The position numbers were made by a program, and so were the translations under genes. Source: Escherichia phage vB_EcoS-Ro145c2YLVW. From it: a stretch of 42,145 bases of DNA. Shown piece after piece: positions 7,330-38,063 of the stretch. Under the pieces are notes generated by a model, which was not told where the DNA came from, ran no database searches, and saw only the letters and a list, made by a program, of their open reading frames with translations. The stretch is taken from the sequence record NC_073322.1; one strand, written 5' to 3'. The first letter of the stretch is position 1. Every line of letters starts with the position of its first letter.

Positions 7330-8805
7330 ATGTTAACTATGAACGGTCAGAATCAGGGTGTTAAGACGAAACACCAGGAATGGCTGCATCACTTCGATAA
7401 ATGGCAGAAGGTACGTCACGCACTGGAAGGCGACCTTATTCGCTATCTGCGCAACGTCGGGAAGAACGAGCCTGACCCGACCTACGCGGCACAGCGCCAG
7501 GAAGAATATGAGAACGGCGCTATCTGCTACAACTTCACTAAACGTACCCTGGCGGGGATGGTCGGCAGTGTCATGCGCAAAGACCCTGAGCAGATTATCC
7601 CCCCTGAACTTGAGTACCTGTTACGCAATGCTGATGGTTCCGGTGTCGGGCTGTGGCAGCACGCACAGGATACTTTGATGGAGATTGACTCGGTGGGCCG
7701 TGGCGGGCTGCTGGTGGACGCCCCTGAGACAGCTGCGGCAACGGCAGCAGAACAGAACGCAGGATTATTAAACCCGGTCATTGCATTCTACACCACGGAG
7801 AACATCATCAACTGGCGACTGACACGCGTCGGTTCAGTCAACCGTGTGACTATGGTCGTGCTGCGTGAGGTATGGGAATACTCAGAACCGGGGGCAGAGT
7901 TTGAAACCAAGTTCGGTGAACAGTTCCGCGTCCTCGACCTGATTGATGGTCGTTACCGCCAACGCATCTATCGCTTCGATGTCGAAGGCGGCGCTCAGGA
8001 CGAAGTAATCGAAATATTCCCGGAACTCGGCGAACAGTTACGTGGCAAAATCCCGTTCACGTTTATTGGCGCAAGCAACAACGACGCCACTATCGACGAT
8101 GCGCCTTTGCTGCCGTTGGCCGAGCTAAACATAGGACACTTCAGAAATTCGGCTGATGTGGAAGAGGCCAGCTTTATAGTAGGCCAGCCCACTCTGTTCA
8201 TCGCCCCCGGCGATAATATGAGCATGGAGCAATGGAAAGAAGCCAACCCCCACGGCATCCGCATGGGGTCGCGTTCTGGTCACAACATTGGCTACGGCGG
8301 CACTGCGTTTCTGGTTCAGGCGGCGGAAACTAACCTCGCCAAACAGAACATGCTGGATAAAGAGAATCAGGCCATCCAGATTGGCGCACAGCTTATTACC
8401 CCGACGCAACAAATCACCGCTGAATCGGCCCGCCTGCAACGAGGTGCGGATACGTCCGTTATGGCGACAATCGCACGCAACGTAAGCATGGCGTACACCG
8501 ATGCGCTACGCTGGGTAGCTGCGATGCTTGGGCTTCGTGAGGATACTGAGATTGAGTTCAAGCTGAATATGGAGTTCTTCCTGCAACCGATGACCGCCCA
8601 GGACCGTGCTCAGTGGATGGCCGACATCAACGCCGGTCTGTTACCAGCTACCGCTTACTACGCGGCATTGCGCAAGGCGGGTGTAACTGACTGGACAGAT
8701 GAGGATATTCAGAACGCTATTGAAGACGCGCCGCTGCCGGTTTTTACACAGACTACCGGGGAAATTCCGGCTACAGCACAGCAGGATGAAGAGGCGCAGC
8801 AATGA
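7330..8805 (+). CDS. portal protein
   Basis: 491-aa protein directly after terminase large subunit; AAGAGGA SD before ATG 7330. Confidence 0.8.
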   Translation: MLTMNGQNQGVKTKHQEWLHHFDKWQKVRHALEGDLIRYLRNVGKNEPDPTYAAQRQEEYENGAICYNFTKRTLAGMVGSVMRKDPEQIIPPELEYLLRNADGSGVGLWQHAQDTLMEIDSVGRGGLLVDAPETAAATAAEQNAGLLNPVIAFYTTENIINWRLTRVGSVNRVTMVVLREVWEYSEPGAEFETKFGEQFRVLDLIDGRYRQRIYRFDVEGGAQDEVIEIFPELGEQLRGKIPFTFIGASNNDATIDDAPLLPLAELNIGHFRNSADVEEASFIVGQPTLFIAPGDNMSMEQWKEANPHGIRMGSRSGHNIGYGGTAFLVQAAETNLAKQNMLDKENQAIQIGAQLITPTQQITAESARLQRGADTSVMATIARNVSMAYTDALRWVAAMLGLREDTEIEFKLNMEFFLQPMTAQDRAQWMADINAGLLPATAYYAALRKAGVTDWTDEDIQNAIEDAPLPVFTQTTGEIPATAQQDEEAQQ

Positions 8806-9857
8806 GCAAGCTATCGCAGATGATTATCAGCCATCAAATATGGCTACAGAGACTAGGAACGCAAACAGCGTCGCTGTCCGTCCCCTTCGTCAATAAGATG
8901 CGTGCGGAGGTGCGCGACGCGGTGCTTAAGTTCGGTGACGACGCGCGCACAGTGAAGAAGCTGAATAAAATGCTGACAAGCCTGGATGGCGTGCTGGATG
9001 ACGTCACCGGCGATTGGAAGAGCACGATAGAGAAGAGCCTTCGCGAGATTGCCGACTACGAGAATAAGTGGTTTATCCATACGCTGGAGGCCAACACGAA
9101 GCCGAAAACGTTTATTACCGGACCTACGGCAGAAGAACTGTGGTCGCGTATCAAGTTCGCACCACTGGCGATGGGTAACTCACCTGTCGGCGTTATGGAC
9201 CTGATGTCAGGCTGGGCGCAGACCGAGCGTAACCGCCTTGTGCGCGGCGTACAGACCGGCTTTGTGCAGGGGCAGACAACCCACCAAATTGTCTCTGCCG
9301 TTGTGGGCCCCGGTGGCCTGGCCGATATATCTGAGCGCAACGTAATGACGGTAGTCCGAACAGCAGTGAGTCACGTATCGAACACGGCGCGAGACTCTGT
9401 GTACGACAGCAACAGCGATATTGTGAGCAAATATCAGTGGGTATCTACGCTCGACAGCCGTACTTCGACTGTATGTAAGTCGCGCGACGGCCAGAAATAT
9501 GACATAGGTAGAGGGCCGATGCCCCCCGCCCATCCGAACTGCCGCAGTACCACTATCCCGGTAATCGAAGATGACTTCCTGGACTTTCTCGACGAGGGGG
9601 CTAAGCGGGCGGCTAAGGGTGCGGACGGCGGTACTCAGGTAAGCGCAGACACCACCTATTACGAGTTCCTGAAGCAACAACCGGCATGGTTTCAGGACCA
9701 GGCGCTCGGCCCTGTTCGCGGTAAGATTTTCCGCGGCAGCGGTATATCGCCGGAAGAGTTTCGCGTAATATCTGTAGATGGTTTCGGGAATCCGCTCACG
9801 CTTAAGCAGATGGCGGAACTCGATAAACGTGTTGCTGATTATCTGAAAGGGGAATAA
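8802..9857 (+). CDS. head morphogenesis / minor head protein
   Basis: Position after portal with overlapping start; size 351 aa. Confidence 0.65.
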   Translation: MSKLSQMIISHQIWLQRLGTQTASLSVPFVNKMRAEVRDAVLKFGDDARTVKKLNKMLTSLDGVLDDVTGDWKSTIEKSLREIADYENKWFIHTLEANTKPKTFITGPTAEELWSRIKFAPLAMGNSPVGVMDLMSGWAQTERNRLVRGVQTGFVQGQTTHQIVSAVVGPGGLADISERNVMTVVRTAVSHVSNTARDSVYDSNSDIVSKYQWVSTLDSRTSTVCKSRDGQKYDIGRGPMPPAHPNCRSTTIPVIEDDFLDFLDEGAKRAAKGADGGTQVSADTTYYEFLKQQPAWFQDQALGPVRGKIFRGSGISPEEFRVISVDGFGNPLTLKQMAELDKRVADYLKGE

Positions 9858-10318
9858 TGATGGGCTTTTTCAAAATTACTGATGTACCGTCGCGCCGCGT
9901 AGTCCAGTTTGCCCGTGTGTCTGGCTCTGGCGAGAACGTGGTGTTTATTGATGATGAAAGTGAACTGGGTACTCCTGTAGACGATATGCCGTTTGCCGAC
10001 AAGACCGGTATTGCGCTACCAGCGGCGGGTATGCTTTACGAGATTCCGTATCTGGCTGATGCAGGTGATGTTTATTTCTCGGTACAACCTAAAGATGCAG
10101 AACTGACAGACGGCAGCGCGACTATCACTGTCGAAGTTAAGGCGGGTAAAGCCCCCTATGCGCTGGCATGGTACAAAGACGGCAAGGAAGTGGTAAATGC
10201 CCCGGAAGAGGCTTTGTCACTGACGGTTAACGCCGCGGGTGAATACTTCGTTAAAGTTACTGATGCCAATGGAGTGGAGGCGGTTAGCAAAGCGGCGAAG
10301 GTTACTAAGCCAGAATGA
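9857..10318 (+). CDS. structural protein with C-terminal Ig-like domain
   Basis: C-terminal segment PYALAWYKDGKEV...EYFVKVTDANG resembles Ig-like fold; homologous to domain in 13649..13999. Confidence 0.5.
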   Translation: MMGFFKITDVPSRRVVQFARVSGSGENVVFIDDESELGTPVDDMPFADKTGIALPAAGMLYEIPYLADAGDVYFSVQPKDAELTDGSATITVEVKAGKAPYALAWYKDGKEVVNAPEEALSLTVNAAGEYFVKVTDANGVEAVSKAAKVTKPE

Positions 10319-10321
10319 TAA

Positions 10322-10348
10322 AAGGCCCCATTATGGGGCCTTAGTTTT
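10322..10348. terminator. bidirectional hairpin terminator
   Basis: AAGGCCCCA-TTA-TGGGGCCTT stem-loop followed by AGTTTT; sits between convergent genes. Confidence 0.6.
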
Positions 10349-10571
10349 AAACTTCCACGTCTATCACCAAATCATCAGGCATGGTTATGACTATTTTATC
10401 GTTTTCATAGAACGGGCTAAGAGGCTCATTTTCAGGCTGCAAACGTAAAGTTAGCTTTTTATCACCAAAATAATCTATGTAACGAACCCAGTACCACTCG
10501 TCGAATACCTGTACCTTTTCTCCGGGGCGTACATCTCTAGCCTTCTTTTGATTCGTAAATCTAATCGGCAT
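10347..10571 (-). CDS. hypothetical protein (74 aa), antisense moron
   Basis: ATG with AGGAGG SD; driven by class A promoter at 10598-10626; ends at the bidirectional terminator. Confidence 0.55.
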   Translation of the reverse strand: MPIRFTNQKKARDVRPGEKVQVFDEWYWVRYIDYFGDKKLTLRLQPENEPLSPFYENDKIVITMPDDLVIDVEV

Positions 10572-10597
10572 AAATACCTCCTGTTTAAGTTAACTGA

Positions 10598-10626
10598 ATA
10601 GTACCCTACTATATTGGGGTGTGCAA
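10598..10626 (-). promoter_or_regulatory. sigma70-like promoter, class A cassette
   Basis: Minus strand TTGCAC-17 nt-TACTAT; near-identical to cassettes at 512, 20344, 41428. Confidence 0.5.
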
Positions 10627-10692
10627 ACTATTTGTTTATGTATTCCAGTTATTCCGCTCAATTGTAAATGTTGGAATAAACTATTCGAATAG

Positions 10693-10721
10693 TTGACTTT
10701 TCACTGAAAATGTGCTAAGCT
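10693..10721 (+). promoter_or_regulatory. promoter with extended -10 (TTGACT-17 nt-TGcTAAGCT)
   Basis: -35 TTGACT 10693-10698, TG motif then TAAGCT 10716-10721; preceded by GGAATA-type repeats. Confidence 0.4.
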
Positions 10722-10728
10722 CCACCTG

Positions 10729-10929
10729 AGCTTGTGAAGTATGAACAAGCGACCGCGGCGCGGGCAGGTAACGGAGCGGGACGTAAGTCCTGAGTGTAGT
10801 TACGCTGACGCGTTCGGAAGGGCCATACTCTATTGCTTGTGTAAAAAGTAACGGGTTTACTGAGATTACGCCGTTTCTATGTTTAAATGATAAGGCCTAG
10901 CGCCCCGCTTTATGGCGGGGCTTTACTTA
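10729..10929 (+). ncRNA. candidate small RNA or structured leader upstream of spanins
   Basis: About 200 nt between a promoter and a GC-rich hairpin (GCCCCGC-TTTATG-GCGGGGC plus T-rich tail); no ORF over 10 codons; internal hairpin GCTTGT-N9-ACAAGC. Confidence 0.3.
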
Positions 10930-10945
10930 TCGAGAAAGGGGAAAC

Positions 10946-11332
10946 ATGAATCTTAAAGCAACTGTCATGGCAGGAGCATGTTTCATCATCCTGGTTTACG
11001 CACACGGCATCTACCAGTATCGCAGCGGCTGGAACGAGGGCCGGGCGAATCTCATTTCGCAGCAACAGCAGAAAGCACAAGCTGAGTTAGCGAAGAAAAC
11101 ACAACGGCAGCAGCAGGATGAATCAAAGGCCGCGGCCGCTGACAACGAAGGCAAGACGAAATCAGAGGTGATTACCCGTGAAGTCGTTAAGTACATTAAA
11201 ACGCCTGGTCGCAGCGTGTGCACTTTCGACCCTGAGCGCGTGCAGCTCAAGTCCCGCGCCGTCGCAAACGCCAATTCCATCCCCGGATACGACGATGATG
11301 CAGCCGCCGTGCAAACTGGCACCGCCAAGTAG
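10946..11332 (+). CDS. i-spanin (Rz-like)
   Basis: N-terminal membrane helix then charged Q/K/E-rich coiled-coil region; o-spanin-like gene embedded in +1 frame. Confidence 0.6.
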   Translation: MNLKATVMAGACFIILVYAHGIYQYRSGWNEGRANLISQQQQKAQAELAKKTQRQQQDESKAAAADNEGKTKSEVITREVVKYIKTPGRSVCTFDPERVQLKSRAVANANSIPGYDDDAAAVQTGTAK

Positions 11333-11441
11333 CGACGCTGACGAGGATTTGGCTGTCGACGTTCAGAACGCCGAATGCGCACGGCAATTGCGCCTGAAAG
11401 TGTTCATGTTGCAGGATTACGTGAGGAATATTCTGGAATAG
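11178..11441 (+). CDS. o-spanin (Rz1-like lipoprotein)
   Basis: Signal peptide with lipobox LSAC, proline-rich mature region; starts inside Rz-like gene and extends past its stop. Confidence 0.6.
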   Translation: MKSLSTLKRLVAACALSTLSACSSSPAPSQTPIPSPDTTMMQPPCKLAPPSSDADEDLAVDVQNAECARQLRLKVFMLQDYVRNILE

Positions 11442-11475
11442 TTGCCTTGCATGTTGGAATAATTTATTCTTGACA
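11420..11475 (+). promoter_or_regulatory. operator-like GGAATA repeat region with -35-like TTGACA
   Basis: GAATATTC and GAATAATTTATTC palindromes plus 12-mer ATGTTGGAATAA shared with 10664-10675; TTGACA at 11470 with no clear -10. Confidence 0.3.
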
Positions 11476-11523
11476 TGTAAATCCGGGTGGCCCGGGTTCC
11501 AACGTCCAGGGGACATACTGACT

Positions 11524-17688: not shown

Positions 17689-17708
17689 AAGGCCCCGAAA
17701 GGGGCCTT
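17689..17708. terminator. bidirectional hairpin terminator AAGGCCCC-GAAA-GGGGCCTT
   Basis: Perfect 8-bp GC stem with GAAA loop between convergent genes; identical copy at 18218-18237. Confidence 0.6.
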
Positions 17709-17709
17709 A

Positions 17710-18204
17710 CTATTTACCGTGGTTCTCGTGGAACCCCAAATCTCTTTCAGCAACTCTCCTCGCGGCAACTGCATCTAGTATCGTCTTAAAGCACCCGATA
17801 TGTGTTTTTACGTTATTGTTGAATATCTGCGCGTACCACAACCTTTCTTTCGCGTTCCAGTAGACTCCGGTTACTCCTGATTTATTATTACGCTGTTTTG
17901 ACATATTTTTATGGTTTTCCGCATTGGACTTTTTAGCTAAGTTAAGCGGTCTATTGTTTATTCGGTCATGGTCTAGATGGTCTATTTGATCTGACGAGGT
18001 TAGCTTATTGTTAGGATTGTTTAAGTCCCAAGCTATACGGTGCGCCGCATGCCATTTACCCCGGAAAAATATCCTTCTATATCCGTCTCGCTGGACGGTA
18101 CCTGCTTCCTCTCCAGCCTTAGCCCTCCCGGACCGGGTTACTCTGTTAAATATCCTTCCTGAAATTAAGTCGTATATGAAAAATTCATTCCAATCCATAA
18201 TCAT
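17710..18204 (-). CDS. HNH homing endonuclease with AP2-type DNA-binding domain
   Basis: HNH-type motifs (YRRIFFRGKWHAAHRIAW, IDHLDHDRINN) and C-terminal GVTGVYW...W segment. Confidence 0.8.
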   Translation of the reverse strand: MIMDWNEFFIYDLISGRIFNRVTRSGRAKAGEEAGTVQRDGYRRIFFRGKWHAAHRIAWDLNNPNNKLTSSDQIDHLDHDRINNRPLNLAKKSNAENHKNMSKQRNNKSGVTGVYWNAKERLWYAQIFNNNVKTHIGCFKTILDAVAARRVAERDLGFHENHGK

Positions 18205-18217
18205 CTCCTATTGTGAT

Positions 18218-18237
18218 AAGGCCCCGAAAGGGGCCTT
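18218..18237. repeat. second copy of AAGGCCCCGAAAGGGGCCTT hairpin
   Basis: 20/20 nt identical to 17689-17708; followed by T run on plus strand. Confidence 0.6.
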
Positions 18238-18241
18238 TTTC

Positions 18242-18472
18242 TTACTCATCAATATTACTCCTGTACTCCCGTAACTTCTCCAGACTCTCAATTGCTTCCG
18301 CTAAGTCGGTTCCTGTGTCCTTGTGCCCCCGCAAGCCCATACACAATAGCTTCTTCAATGCGTGCTGTAACGCCGGGTCGCGGATGTCGAAGGCACGTAG
18401 CACGTCGTAAACGTCTACTGTCATAGTGCTGCCGTGAGTGTTTGTCATTGTGCGGTTGTATTTTGAAGTCAT
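18242..18472 (-). CDS. hypothetical protein (76 aa)
   Basis: Track ORF between the two HNH genes. Confidence 0.5.
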   Translation of the reverse strand: MTSKYNRTMTNTHGSTMTVDVYDVLRAFDIRDPALQHALKKLLCMGLRGHKDTGTDLAEAIESLEKLREYRSNIDE

Positions 18473-18485
18473 AAATCAATCTCCC

Positions 18486-18956
18486 CTACTCATGGTTTTC
18501 ATGAAAACCGTATTTACTCTCGGCGGCTTTACGCGCGGCAACCGCTACATCAAAATCGTCGTAAAGCCCTAAATGCACTTGTTTGTAGTTAACTTTTATA
18601 AACGCGCGCCACTTACCCGCGGCTTTGTGGAAACTTACACCTGTAGCCCCGGATTTATTTATCTTTCTCATAGTTTTATTTTTACTGTCCCCTGTATTGT
18701 CGGTGGCGCGTAGATTTTCTATTCTATTGTCTAGCCTGTTATGGTTTATGTGGTCTATTTGAGTTTTCCTGTCTAAGTCGCATTTATTATAAAGACACCA
18801 TGCTATGCGGTGGACATACACTGTTTTACCACCCATACCGCAGCACAGATAGCCTCTTACACCAACCGTACCAACCTCAGCACCAGTAGATATCCTGGTA
18901 ACCTGCCCCGTCTCAGGGCAGTATTTAAATTGTTTTGAAACATCAAGATACTTCAT
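18486..18956 (-). CDS. HNH homing endonuclease with AP2-type domain (paralog)
   Basis: VYVHRIAW, IDHINHNRLDN and GATGVSF...W motifs; paralogous to 17710..18204. Confidence 0.8.
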   Translation of the reverse strand: MKYLDVSKQFKYCPETGQVTRISTGAEVGTVGVRGYLCCGMGGKTVYVHRIAWCLYNKCDLDRKTQIDHINHNRLDNRIENLRATDNTGDSKNKTMRKINKSGATGVSFHKAAGKWRAFIKVNYKQVHLGLYDDFDVAVAARKAAESKYGFHENHE

Positions 18957-20083
18957 CTTAGCATCTCCGGTGAGATTGAAAGCCTACCTACTTCCCCGAA
19001 CTCTGAACTATAGGTTATGACATTAGCGGACCTCTTAGACATCCACCCGCCGCGAGAAGCATATGCATCTTTCGCCGCGAGAGTGCGATGTTGTTCCACT
19101 ACCATATTCCTACTTTCTACAATCTTTTGATGGTGGAGATGCCCGACATGTGCGTAACTGTACTCGCTTTCGCCAAATGCTTTTCTGAACTTAGCTATCA
19201 TAATGGGTTCGACCACCTCAAACCGGCATTTATGCCCGTGTGTAAAGAACAGTGTCGTTTTACCGTGTTGCACCATCTTGTAAACATCCGGCGACGTATC
19301 GACGAACACACGCGGCTCATTGTCGTACAGCGTACTGAACATCTCAGCCAACCAAATCATTCCGCTTTCGTCGTGGTTCCCTTGCACGATAAGCAAGCGA
19401 ACATTTTTATGCTTAACCAGCGCCATACCAACAACACGGCGTACCATACGAATCATGTAGCGGACTAGTTTCTGGTAGCGCGTGTCCGCATCAAGAACAT
19501 GACCGCTCGCTGGCGTAACGGCATCCAGACTATCGAAGTGTGCGAAGTCCCCGAGCAGATTAATGACTCCTGTTCCTGCATCTGGCGCTTTCTGGAATGC
19601 CGCATCGAACCATCGGGAGAACAGGTCTTCAGCAATCTTCATATCCCAGTCGTCGCCGCTCTCGTCGGCCCAGGCCAGCATGCCGAGATGGAAATCAGAT
19701 ACCGTGTAAAGATTGAGTAGTTTGTCGTCACGTTTGGCTCGAGTCGCTTTAACAGGCGCAACTGGGGTAATCTCTGACTTCATGCCTTCAACCACGGCTT
19801 TCATCAACTCAACCTGACGTTCGGCATCGGTGTCGGTCTTAACCCATTGCAACTTAGTGTTGCCGAACTCGTCTACCAGTGACGACGTTCCTTTAATCTT
19901 GTAGCCGTCTGGCACAAGGTGACTAACATCACGACCATGACCTACGCCTTTCTTCGCCAGCTTCGCTTTACGGATACGAATAACGCGGTCTGAGATGCCG
20001 TATTTACGGGCAATGTCGATATTCTTCATCCCGACGTTCAATTCTTCCTGTAACTGTTCGTCGGTTATTTTCTTCTGGGCCAT
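18953..20083 (-). CDS. calcineurin-like metallophosphoesterase with N-terminal HTH domain
   Basis: Ordered motifs DFH, GDFAHFD, GNHDE, THGHK, GHLHH match the metallophosphoesterase signature; N-terminal 110 aa has an HTH-like segment. Confidence 0.75.
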   Translation of the reverse strand: MAQKKITDEQLQEELNVGMKNIDIARKYGISDRVIRIRKAKLAKKGVGHGRDVSHLVPDGYKIKGTSSLVDEFGNTKLQWVKTDTDAERQVELMKAVVEGMKSEITPVAPVKATRAKRDDKLLNLYTVSDFHLGMLAWADESGDDWDMKIAEDLFSRWFDAAFQKAPDAGTGVINLLGDFAHFDSLDAVTPASGHVLDADTRYQKLVRYMIRMVRRVVGMALVKHKNVRLLIVQGNHDESGMIWLAEMFSTLYDNEPRVFVDTSPDVYKMVQHGKTTLFFTHGHKCRFEVVEPIMIAKFRKAFGESEYSYAHVGHLHHQKIVESRNMVVEQHRTLAAKDAYASRGGWMSKRSANVITYSSEFGEVGRLSISPEMLR

Positions 20084-20121
20084 GCTTACTTCCTCGTGTT
20101 TAGGATTTGTCCTATACTAGC

Positions 20122-20313
20122 TCACTTCTCGTTAACATTCGAGTTGCACGCCCAGATTAAAATAAATACCCACGGCAGCAGAACCCAACCAAGAAACAGG
20201 TTAGCCATGAATATCGCCAACTTCGCTTTATGGTTACGGAAATATGCAACCAGGAAAGGCGCGAAATAAGCGAGCAGTGCAAACAGAATTAAGGAAACTG
20301 GTAAACTTGACAT
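20122..20313 (-). CDS. small membrane protein (63 aa, two predicted TM helices)
   Basis: Track ORF trimmed to ATG 20313 with AAGGGG SD; own class A promoter. Confidence 0.5.
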   Translation of the reverse strand: MSSLPVSLILFALLAYFAPFLVAYFRNHKAKLAIFMANLFLGWVLLPWVFILIWACNSNVNEK

Positions 20314-20343
20314 TTTAAACCCCTTCATTGTTGGTGTAAGTGA

Positions 20344-20372
20344 ATAGTACCCTATTATATTGGGGTGTGCAA
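20344..20372 (-). promoter_or_regulatory. sigma70-like promoter, class A cassette
   Basis: Minus strand TTGCAC-17 nt-TACTAT; 30/32 identical to cassette at 10598-10626. Confidence 0.5.
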
Positions 20373-37999: not shown

Positions 38000-38063
38000 T
38001 GGGCTTTTCTAAAATAATTAATATGGTACTATTCACATATCAACTGACTAAGGAGTGATTAAC

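What the first reader, a model, noticed from the sequence alone, without database searches (positions are those of the whole stretch)
10347..10571. Antisense moron between head genes and spanins
A 74-aa ORF on the minus strand, with a strong Shine-Dalgarno sequence, its own class A promoter and a shared bidirectional terminator, sits inside the plus-strand structural region. Independent transcription in the opposite orientation is the hallmark of a moron; function is unknown.
Basis: partly seen in the sequence, partly recalled or inferred. Interest (0 to 1): 0.45.

Follow-up and report, generated by a model that had tools for sequence, protein, structure and literature searches.

The report
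Swappable antisense accessory gene cassette
A small backward-facing gene with its own on/off signals sits among the head genes of an E. coli phage; it is a genuine optional "moron" in a slot where related phages carry many different genes or none, and its protein is a small barrel of unknown function shaped like part of a translation factor.

Summary
The window is Escherichia phage vB_EcoS-Ro145clw (Kagunavirus). The 74-codon minus-strand ORF 10347-10571 has an AGGAGG site 5 nt before its ATG. Its promoter motif occurs 5 times in the window (0.12 expected). Its stop codon lies 4 nt from a symmetric hairpin shared with the Hoc-like head gene.

The whole unit (about 10319-10641) is absent from 9 of 46 related loci. 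The other 37 keep the same promoter, leader and terminator but carry at least 14 unrelated cargo families, including a DNA methyltransferase, an endonuclease VII-like protein and membrane peptides. Some cargoes also occupy a second slot with the same signals. This is a moron whose signals belong to a reusable slot, much like T4 PeSL cassettes.

The ORF is under purifying selection (dN/dS 0.04-0.23) and has 40% GC against about 51% nearby. It belongs to a tiny phage-only family that is rare in Kagunavirus. The predicted fold (pLDDT 86) best matches EF-P/eIF5A domain I, but EF-P's sequence and loop signatures are missing. The domain is also found fused to HD_4 alarmone-hydrolase-like enzymes.

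I infer an optional, probably early-expressed protein-binding accessory factor. Transcription and function are untested. An adjacent ultra-conserved structured RNA is worth separate study.

The parts
10319..10641 (-). The whole optional module (terminator + ORF + leader + promoter), inserted relative to empty-site relatives.
   Evidence: In alignment A5, empty-site phages (K1ind1-type, L009, L013, L024, L035, L044) join the Hoc-like stop plus their own terminator directly to TATTCCAGTTATTCC, which is window 10642. The slot is 37-38 nt when empty and 202-865 nt when occupied.
10320..10348 (.). Bidirectional intrinsic terminator AAAA-GGCCCC-ATTAT-GGGGCC-TT-AG-TTTT (hairpin 10322-10342), shared by the Hoc-like gene (+) and the 74-aa ORF (-).
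   Evidence: It was called on the minus strand with 9 pairs, 6 of them G-C. The same hairpin core occurs 4 times in the window, always at convergent gene junctions, against 0 expected. It is conserved in all occupied relatives, whereas empty-site phages have a different one-sided hairpin.
10347..10571 (-). 74-aa ORF (stop included): an acidic all-beta small protein, PHROG 8705.
   Evidence: dN/dS is 0.04-0.23 and GC is 40%. The AF2 model has pLDDT 86 and pTM 0.72. Its fold is nearest to EF-P/eIF5A domain I.
10572..10591 (-). Predicted ~20-nt 5' leader with the Shine-Dalgarno AGGAGG (10577-10582), 5 nt before the ATG.
   Evidence: Read directly from the sequence. The leader GTTAACTTAAACAGGAG is conserved in relatives whatever ORF follows.
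10595..10629 (-). 'Class A' promoter motif: -35 TTGCAC (10621-10626), 17-nt spacer, -10 TACTAT (10598-10603). The -10 lies inside the palindrome ATAGTA-GGG-TACTAT (10598-10612).
   Evidence: There are 5 copies in the window against 0.12 expected, aligned. The same motif heads both slots in relatives. It was reported as a PHIRE repeat, tgAATAGTa-ccTATTat-T, in phage fBC-Eco01 (PMC9825357). Promoter activity is predicted, not shown.

Best explanation
This is a self-contained, leftward-transcribed accessory cassette (a moron) inside the rightward head/lysis gene block of a virulent Kagunavirus.

Shown from sequence and comparison:
- A promoter of the phage's own five-copy class lies upstream, followed by a ~20-nt leader with AGGAGG and a 74-codon ORF.
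- The stop codon sits 4 nt from a symmetric hairpin that also ends the Hoc-like gene.
- The whole unit is present or absent among close relatives.
- Within occupied relatives only the ORF is exchanged, between the conserved SD and the conserved terminator, for at least 14 unrelated families.
- The same cargoes turn up in a second slot that has the same signals.

This points to homologous recombination at the shared regulatory sequences as the way cargo is exchanged, as proposed for T4 PeSL cassettes.

Inferred:
- Host sigma-70 RNA polymerase reads the unit independently of the late operon. It probably does so early, because the other class A copies head the clusters of small early-type genes and an HTH regulator gene.
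- The product is a non-essential, mildly acidic beta-barrel with an EF-P/eIF5A N-domain-like (KOW/SH3-type) fold. It is a portable ~65-aa binding module. It stands alone in early or accessory gene clusters of Sashavirus, Chivirus and a Klebsiella prophage. Elsewhere it is fused to HD_4 alarmone-hydrolase-like enzymes and to Ead/Ea22-like proteins.
- It most likely works by docking, through its invariant RYI strand and acidic LQPE-EPLSPF-END loop, onto a host or defence protein, and so helps infection on some hosts (host takeover or counter-defence). The target is unknown.
For: Anatomy.
Presence/absence and exact module borders: (9 empty, 37 occupied of 46 loci). In a spread sample of phage records, 15 of 40 lack the first 69 nt of the intergenic query that carry the promoter and leader.
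ORF-only swapping with constant flanks.
Same promoter and leader at a second slot, with cargo moving between slots: the 173-aa gene is in slot 2 in 9 loci and in slot 1 in L035; 60- and 61-aa genes behave likewise.
Repeated terminator core.
Cargo spectrum typical of accessory or anti-restriction genes: N6_N4 methyltransferase, endonuclease VII-like protein, membrane peptides, unknowns.
Coding and foreign origin: dN/dS 0.04-0.23; GC 40% against 51-55%.
Rarity: present in only Ro145clw and ZCEC5 among the phage records, in 0 of 38 IMG/VR Kagunavirus loci fetched through the Hoc-like gene, and in three metagenomic contigs.
Other homes: co-oriented early or accessory clusters in Bas82/PDP46 (about 65% identity), Chi-like phages (about 45%) and a Klebsiella prophage.
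Fold.
Domain fusions and neighbourhoods with HD_4, SLOG and methyltransferases.
Conserved acidic character.
Against: There is no transcript, TSS or protein evidence. The only Kagunavirus RNA-seq paper I found did not annotate this slot. The promoter matches the sigma-70 consensus at only about 8 of 12 positions and failed the generic scan, and 'early' timing rests on analogy. No homologue has a tested function, and there are no Pfam or PADLOC hits. The association with HD_4 and SLOG genes is seen in two other phage groups but not in Kagunavirus, where the gene stands alone. No gene neighbour is consistent across all contexts. The fold call rests on an AF2 model from a shallow alignment of 38 sequences.
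Confidence: 0.6

Rival explanations
1. The protein is a stand-alone mimic of EF-P/eIF5A domain I. It would dock where EF-P does, either on the ribosome between the E and P sites or on the EF-P-modifying enzyme EpmA, and so reprogram host translation.
Against: There is no sequence-level relationship: hhalign gives probability 0.2%, and EFP_N matches 1 of 38 members at E=0.04, below the cut-off. The beta-hairpin loop is 3 residues long and variable, with no conserved Lys or Arg, whereas EF-P needs a 7-residue loop modified at its tip (PMC6544042 abstract). The family is acidic (median net charge -3), while an rRNA/tRNA-contacting surface would be expected to be basic. Foldseek E-values are only about 5e-3.
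Confidence: 0.08
2. The protein is a Tudor/KOW-like binder of host RNA polymerase or another nucleic-acid enzyme. It would act as an early transcription or replication modulator, like other small acidic phage inhibitors.
Against: These structural matches are much weaker than the EF-P-type ones and are generic for SH3-like barrels. There is no direct evidence of any kind.
Confidence: 0.1
3. The gene is a core regulator of the neighbouring conserved RNA or late operon, not an optional accessory gene.
For: It is transcribed divergently from the ultra-conserved promoter and structured RNA at 10694-10925, and it has a KOW-like fold.
Against: The RNA element is present and 94-98% identical in 177 records. 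The 74-aa gene is in only two phage isolates. The slot holds unrelated genes or nothing while the RNA element is unchanged.
Confidence: 0.03
4. The ORF is incidental, and the functional part is the leftward transcript or the promoter-terminator pair itself, acting as insulation or transcriptional interference within the late operon.
For: The promoter, leader and terminator are more conserved than the cargo.
Against: There is strong purifying selection on the protein, a conserved protein family across four phage groups and a strong SD. Empty-site phages do without the unit. The transcript ends before it overlaps any plus-strand gene.
Confidence: 0.03

Closest known systems
Morons of lambdoid and HK97-like phages (the concept of Juhala, Hendrix and colleagues, 2000; cited from my own knowledge)
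   Same: An extra gene sits between two conserved structural genes. It has its own promoter and terminator, atypical base composition, and is present in some close relatives and absent in others.
   Different: The host phage is virulent, so prophage expression or lysogenic conversion does not apply. The expression signals are a conserved, reusable slot framework rather than travelling with the individual gene. The slot is occupied in most relatives, by varied cargo.
PeSL (promoter-early stem-loop) regulatory cassettes of T4-type phages (Arbiol et al. 2010, PMC2839356; Comeau et al. 2014, PMC4122927)
   Same: Repeated sigma-70-like promoter and stem-loop terminator motifs bound non-essential ORFs of unknown function. 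Unrelated ORFs are exchanged exactly at these motifs, and the same ORF appears at different motif-bounded positions.
   Different: The phages here are small siphoviruses with two single-gene or small-operon slots inside the structural region, not arrays in hyperplastic regions. The promoter and hairpin flank the ORF rather than forming one composite motif. Mini-circles and promoter or terminator activity are untested.
EF-P / EfpL / eIF5A N-terminal KOW-like domain (for example PDB 6j7m, 8put, 8s8u, 5wxk)
   Same: It is the best structural match for the predicted 74-aa barrel, including the long beta-hairpin.
   Different: There is no detectable sequence homology. The hairpin loop is short and variable, without the modified Lys or Arg. 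The OB domains II and III are absent. The surface is acidic rather than basic.
PHROG 8705 homologues: Bas82_0084 and PDP46_0090 (Sashavirus), YSD1_46c and other Chi-like phages, and Klebsiella prophage protein P0034
   Same: They belong to the same protein family (45-66% identity, same length, same RYI and LQPE-EPLSPF motifs).
   Different: In those phages the gene is co-oriented inside long clusters of early or accessory genes, near ParB-like, SLOG, methyltransferase and HD_4 genes. It is not an antisense single-gene unit within structural genes. None has a tested function.
Antisense counter-defence genes within structural modules, for example the Acb2/Tad1-hairpin family gene between terminase and portal in the Klebsiella prophage locus L053
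   Same: A small minus-strand gene is embedded among plus-strand packaging and head genes.
   Different: It is a different protein family. A counter-defence role for the 74-aa protein is only a guess.

Membership tests
Moron (independent accessory transcription unit in a phage late region) | The gene lies between two conserved genes and is present in some close relatives and absent in others. | tested here: met
   9 of 46 loci have an empty 37-38-nt slot and 37 are occupied. The exact borders are 10319 and 10641.
Moron (independent accessory transcription unit in a phage late region) | It has its own promoter upstream and its own terminator downstream. | tested here: met
   This is met at the sequence level. 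The promoter is a five-copy motif with a TTGCAC-17-TACTAT layout. The hairpin carries a T-run on the minus strand. Activity was not measured.
Moron (independent accessory transcription unit in a phage late region) | Its base composition differs from the surrounding genome. | tested here: met
   The ORF is 40% GC, against 51% for the Hoc-like gene, 55% for the spanin gene and 51% for the window.
Moron (independent accessory transcription unit in a phage late region) | It is transcribed independently of the late operon. | not testable with these tools
   The only Kagunavirus RNA-seq study found left this slot unannotated.
PeSL-type mobile regulatory cassettes | Conserved promoter and stem-loop motifs are repeated at several genome positions. 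| tested here: met
   The promoter motif occurs 5 times and the hairpin core AAGGCCCC-N3-6-GGGGCCTT occurs 4 times. Both are far above chance.
PeSL-type mobile regulatory cassettes | Unrelated ORFs are exchanged at the motifs, and the same ORF is found at different motif-bounded sites. | tested here: met
   At least 14 cargo families sit between constant flanks. The 173-, 60- and 61-aa genes are found in either of two slots.
PeSL-type mobile regulatory cassettes | The terminator and promoter are fused into one composite motif, arranged in arrays within hyperplastic regions. | tested here: not met
   Here the promoter and hairpin lie on opposite sides of the cargo. Multi-ORF slots have one promoter and one hairpin only.
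PeSL-type mobile regulatory cassettes | Recombination between the motifs produces excised mini-circles. | not testable with these tools
   This needs PCR or sequencing of infected-cell or virion DNA.
EF-P / eIF5A N-terminal domain (Pfam EFP_N, PF08207) | KOW-like beta-barrel fold with a long beta3-beta4 hairpin. | tested here: met
EF-P / eIF5A N-terminal domain (Pfam EFP_N, PF08207) | Sequence-profile membership. | tested here: not met
   EFP_N matched 1 of 38 members at E=0.04, below the cut-off. hhalign against E. coli EF-P gave probability 0.2%.
EF-P / eIF5A N-terminal domain (Pfam EFP_N, PF08207) | A seven-residue beta3-beta4 loop with a conserved, modified Lys or Arg at its tip. | tested here: not met
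   The loop is residues 36-38 in the model. The tip sequence is variable across the family (FGDKK, LGGKK, HG-AT, HNVGS).
EF-P / eIF5A N-terminal domain (Pfam EFP_N, PF08207) | Followed by OB-fold domain(s) II or III. | tested here: not met
   The protein is 74 aa and a single domain.
PHROG 8705 (phage protein family of unknown function) | A significant full-length profile match. | tested here: met
   E=2.4e-24, with residues 6-73 matching profile positions 2-69 of 73.

The most novel reading that the evidence does not exclude
The 74-aa protein is a portable docking module that imitates domain I of EF-P/eIF5A. Alone, it would occupy the EF-P site on the ribosome, or bind the EF-P-modifying enzyme, to skew host translation early in infection. 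Fused to HD_4 hydrolases, it would deliver alarmone degradation to the same place. That would be a previously undescribed way for phages to target the translation or stringent-response machinery.
Probability: 0.07. Interest if true: 0.8.

Novelty: new member of a known kind. Interest (0 to 1): 0.42.

Why it matters
As a single gene, this is an ordinary moron of unknown function in an already published phage genome. Its slot has more practical value. The slot is a precisely bounded, naturally exchangeable expression site with a conserved promoter, leader/SD and terminator, and relatives load it with methyltransferases, nucleases, membrane peptides and many unknowns. It therefore offers a ready catalogue of candidate host-takeover or counter-defence genes, and a natural insertion site for engineering Kagunavirus phages used in biocontrol. 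The evidence that cargo moves between two slots sharing the same signals extends the PeSL idea from T4-type myoviruses to small siphoviruses. The 74-aa family is a small, uncharacterised phage domain with an EF-P-like fold and with fusions to alarmone-hydrolase-type enzymes, so it is a reasonable target for a pull-down experiment.

Tried and rejected
- Pfam on the protein and on all 38 family members gave only sub-threshold hits to small-barrel families (Mu-transpos_C, SH3_1, EFP_N), which are not informative.
- PADLOC gave nothing.
- A PDB sequence search matched only Tako8, a designed repeat propeller, with no stretch passing on its own. I judged this spurious.
- hhalign against E. coli EF-P was insignificant.
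- The generic sigma-70 scan found no promoter in 9800-11500, because the phage's own motif scores about 8 of 12. I therefore characterised the repeated motif directly.
- I looked for a conserved gene partner across Sashavirus, Chivirus and prophage contexts. None is shared by all. HD_4 and SLOG genes recur in only two groups.
- I looked for transcript evidence in the K1B4 Kagunavirus RNA-seq paper. Its annotation skips the slot.
- The AFDB50 fold library was unavailable.
- I considered and rejected a core-regulator role and a non-coding role; see the rival explanations.
- For the neighbouring RNA, Rfam gave nothing at the gathering or E-value thresholds, there was no match in E. coli genomes, and single-nucleotide indels reject the annotated 36-aa ORF there.

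Full report
**Identity and context.** The region 9800-11400 is 100% identical to Escherichia phage vB_EcoS-Ro145clw (MG852086.2; Guernseyvirinae, Kagunavirus). About 300 related Escherichia and Salmonella phage records match it. The finding's ORF is annotated there as a hypothetical protein. The surrounding genes are as follows:
- portal, 7330-8805
- Mu F-like head morphogenesis, 8802-9857
- Hoc-like Ig decoration protein, 9857-10318
- the minus-strand ORF, 10347-10571
- a 374-nt non-coding stretch
- i-spanin 10946-11332 and o-spanin 11178-11441
- scaffold and major capsid

**Checking the observation.** The ORF is 74 aa with an ATG start. AGGAGG (10577-10582) lies 5 nt upstream of it. TAGGGTACTATTCA occurs five times in the window, against 0.12 expected by chance. 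Four of the five copies, including this one, align as TTGCA(C/T), a 17-nt spacer ACCCCAATATA(A/G)TAGG(G/C), then TACTAT, and all five are followed within about 25-45 nt by an SD and an ATG; the 38022 copy lacks the -35-like TTGCA. Here the -35 is at 10621-10626 and the -10 at 10598-10603. The -10 lies inside the palindrome ATAGTA-GGG-TACTAT.

The motif matches the sigma-70 consensus at only about 8 of 12 positions, which is why the generic scan reported nothing. The same repeat was reported by PHIRE in the Kagunavirus fBC-Eco01 (PMC9825357). The other four copies precede two clusters of small early-type genes, a DicA-like HTH gene, and a minus-strand block inside the tail region.

The terminator hairpin (10322-10342) has an A-run on one side and a T-run on the other. 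It was called on the minus strand, and the ORF's stop codon is 4 nt from its foot. Its core, AAGGCCCC-N3-6-GGGGCCTT, occurs four times in the window, each time where plus- and minus-strand genes converge.

**The gene is real and foreign.**
- It matches PHROG 8705 at E=2e-24.
- It has 14 close and 45 profile-level homologous clusters among 5.8 billion proteins.
- An exhaustive HMMER scan of 1.84 billion cluster representatives found only 44 hits.
- Four Kagunavirus copies give dN/dS of 0.04-0.23.
- Its GC content is 40%, against 51-55% for its neighbours.

**Presence, absence and swapping.** Aligning five annotated relatives shows constant flanks on both sides of the ORF. On the left are the Hoc-like gene's end and the hairpin. 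On the right, conservation resumes exactly at the SD and continues through the leader and promoter. Only the ORF between them differs:

| Phage(s) | Cargo in the slot |
|---|---|
| Ro145clw, ZCEC5 | 74 aa |
| Bas70 | 67 aa |
| K1H | 33-aa membrane peptide |
| XY2 | 173 aa |

I then surveyed 46 loci: 38 IMG/VR contigs fetched through the Hoc-like gene, plus annotated phages and metagenomic contigs. Nine slots are empty (37-38 nt). The other 37 are occupied by at least 14 unrelated cargo families. These include an N6/N4 DNA methyltransferase, an endonuclease VII-like protein, a clamp-like 173-aa protein, membrane peptides and several unknowns.

Empty-site phages (K1ind1 type) run from the Hoc-like stop through a different, one-sided terminator directly to window position 10642. 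The whole unit 10319-10641 is therefore an insertion. Many relatives carry a second slot between the portal and head-morphogenesis genes, with the same promoter, leader and hairpin. The 173-aa, 60-aa and 61-aa cargoes each occur in one slot in some phages and in the other slot in other phages. Multi-ORF slots still have only one promoter and one hairpin. A more distant relative (L047, Hoc-like protein 57% identical) keeps the hairpin and holds two minus-strand ORFs in the same position.

The 74-aa cargo is rare in this lineage. Among the phage records it is found only in Ro145clw and ZCEC5. It is in none of the 38 unbiased IMG/VR loci, and in three metagenomic Kagunavirus contigs, always in this slot.

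**Other homes of the family.** Homologues at about 65% identity lie in Sashavirus phages (Bas82, PDP46, PJ16). Homologues at about 45% lie in Chi-like phages, and one sits in a Klebsiella prophage just upstream of the terminase genes (two small ORFs intervene). In all of these the gene is co-oriented within long clusters of small early or accessory genes. No single neighbour is shared by all contexts.

In Sashavirus the cluster also holds SLOG, cytosine methyltransferase, ParB-like and HD_4 genes. The exhaustive search also found the domain fused to other parts. It sits at the C-terminus of HD_4 (RelA/SpoT-type hydrolase) proteins from roughly 70-118 kb Providencia and Morganella contigs (one of only 17 kb), whose neighbourhoods include Dam, YpsA/SLOG and dCMP deaminase genes. 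It is also joined to Ead/Ea22-like proteins and to repeated small beta domains. The conserved signature is PxD-V, (W/Y)xVRYI, then LQxExExLSP...D.

Membership in the EF-P family fails on every other criterion:
- Sequence profiles do not match.
- The hairpin loop is 3 residues long and variable, instead of 7 residues with a modified Lys or Arg (PMC6544042 abstract).
- There are no OB domains.
- The family is acidic, with a median net charge of -3 and conserved E47, E49, E56, D58, D67, D71 and E73.

**Interpretation.** The moron reading is supported and can be sharpened. The promoter, leader and terminator form a reusable expression slot, and the ORF is interchangeable cargo. The closest described mechanism is the PeSL regulatory-cassette shuffling of T4-type phages (PMC2839356, PMC4122927). 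This system differs in layout and in phage type.

Timing and function are inferred, not shown. Transcription probably uses the host polymerase and probably occurs early. The product is a non-essential binding module, and its acidic loop suggests a protein target. An EF-P-mimic or ribosome-directed role remains possible but is disfavoured by the loop and charge data. No transcript data exist for this slot.

**Neighbouring element (outside the finding).** The 374 nt between the ORF and the spanin gene are 94-98% identical in 177 Escherichia and Salmonella phage records, although the flanking coding DNA is only 60-92% identical. This stretch holds:
- a 16-bp perfect palindrome abutting a TTGACT-17-TGcTAAGCT promoter on the plus strand;
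- about 195 nt that fold into a long hairpin;
- a terminal stem-loop 24 nt before the spanin ATG.

Single-nucleotide indels rule out the 36-aa ORF annotated there in some records. Six base pairs show compensatory double changes, against 0.7 +/- 0.8 in shuffles (0 of 500) and 0-3 in slid controls. Rfam and E. coli genomes give no match. It is probably a structured leader or small RNA of the late operon, and it deserves its own study.

Noticed in passing
window 10642-10945 (promoter about 10694-10722, RNA about 10729-10925): This is an ultra-conserved non-coding element. It is 94-98% identical in 177 Escherichia and Salmonella Guernseyvirinae records, while the flanking genes are 60-92% identical. 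It has a 16-bp perfect palindrome AACTATTCGAATAGTT abutting a TTGACT-17-TGcTAAGCT plus-strand promoter. About 195 nt of structured RNA follow, with 6 covarying pairs (0 of 500 shuffles reach this), ending in a stem-loop 24 nt before the spanin ATG. There is no Rfam hit and no match in E. coli genomes. Indels show that the 36-aa ORF annotated there in some records is not coding. It may be a late-operon leader or small RNA, perhaps analogous to lambda 6S/qut or to put-like elements.
   Followed up: partly
window 17689-20354: A second antisense block (minus-strand genes 17710-20300, including a calcineurin-like phosphoesterase) lies inside the tail-gene region and is headed by another class A promoter copy (20341-20354). 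Two identical hairpins, AAGGCCCCGAAAGGGGCCTT at 17689 and 18218, bracket the 164-aa minus ORF 17710-18204, which looks like another cassette.
   Followed up: partly
loci L015, L016, L020, L021, L033, L034, L035, L037, L040 (about 1870-1895) and L032 (about 842-868): Many relatives have a second cargo slot between the portal and head-morphogenesis genes, with the same promoter, leader and hairpin. Ro145clw lacks it, because its portal and head-morphogenesis genes overlap at 8802-8805. The same cargo genes appear in either slot in different phages.
   Followed up: partly
window 10598-10612, 38000-38035 and the other class A copies: The -10 element of the class A promoters sits inside a 6-3-6 palindrome (ATAGTA-GGG-TACTAT). 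Upstream of the DicA-like HTH gene there are two tandem copies of the ATAATAG..ACTATTCA motif. This could be an operator for a phage repressor that shuts off these promoters.
   Followed up: no
L053 3408-3803 (Klebsiella prophage contig): An Acb2/Tad1-hairpin family gene, a known counter-defence sponge family, lies antisense between the terminase and portal genes in a prophage that also carries a homologue of the 74-aa protein. The layout is analogous to an antisense moron within a structural region.
   Followed up: no
proteins P0064, P0072, P0084-P0087; loci L054, L055: The 74-aa domain occurs fused to the C-terminus of HD_4 (RelA/SpoT-type hydrolase) domains in Providencia and Morganella contigs mostly of about 70-118 kb (one of 17 kb), next to Dam, YpsA/SLOG and dCMP deaminase genes. 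It is also fused to Ead/Ea22-like proteins (P0059, P0063, P0069).
   Followed up: partly
window as a whole, compared with MG852086.2: The window is 114 nt longer than the GenBank v2 record and differs from it by scattered mismatches (the first at window 4186). It is identical over 9800-11400.
   Followed up: partly
MN927226.1 gene GT372_00054 (L004 2047-2568) and relatives: The 173-aa slot cargo annotated as 'DNA polymerase III sliding clamp' has no Pfam hit and matches only PHROGs labelled RusA-like resolvase or processivity factor. The GenBank name is probably over-interpreted.
   Followed up: partly
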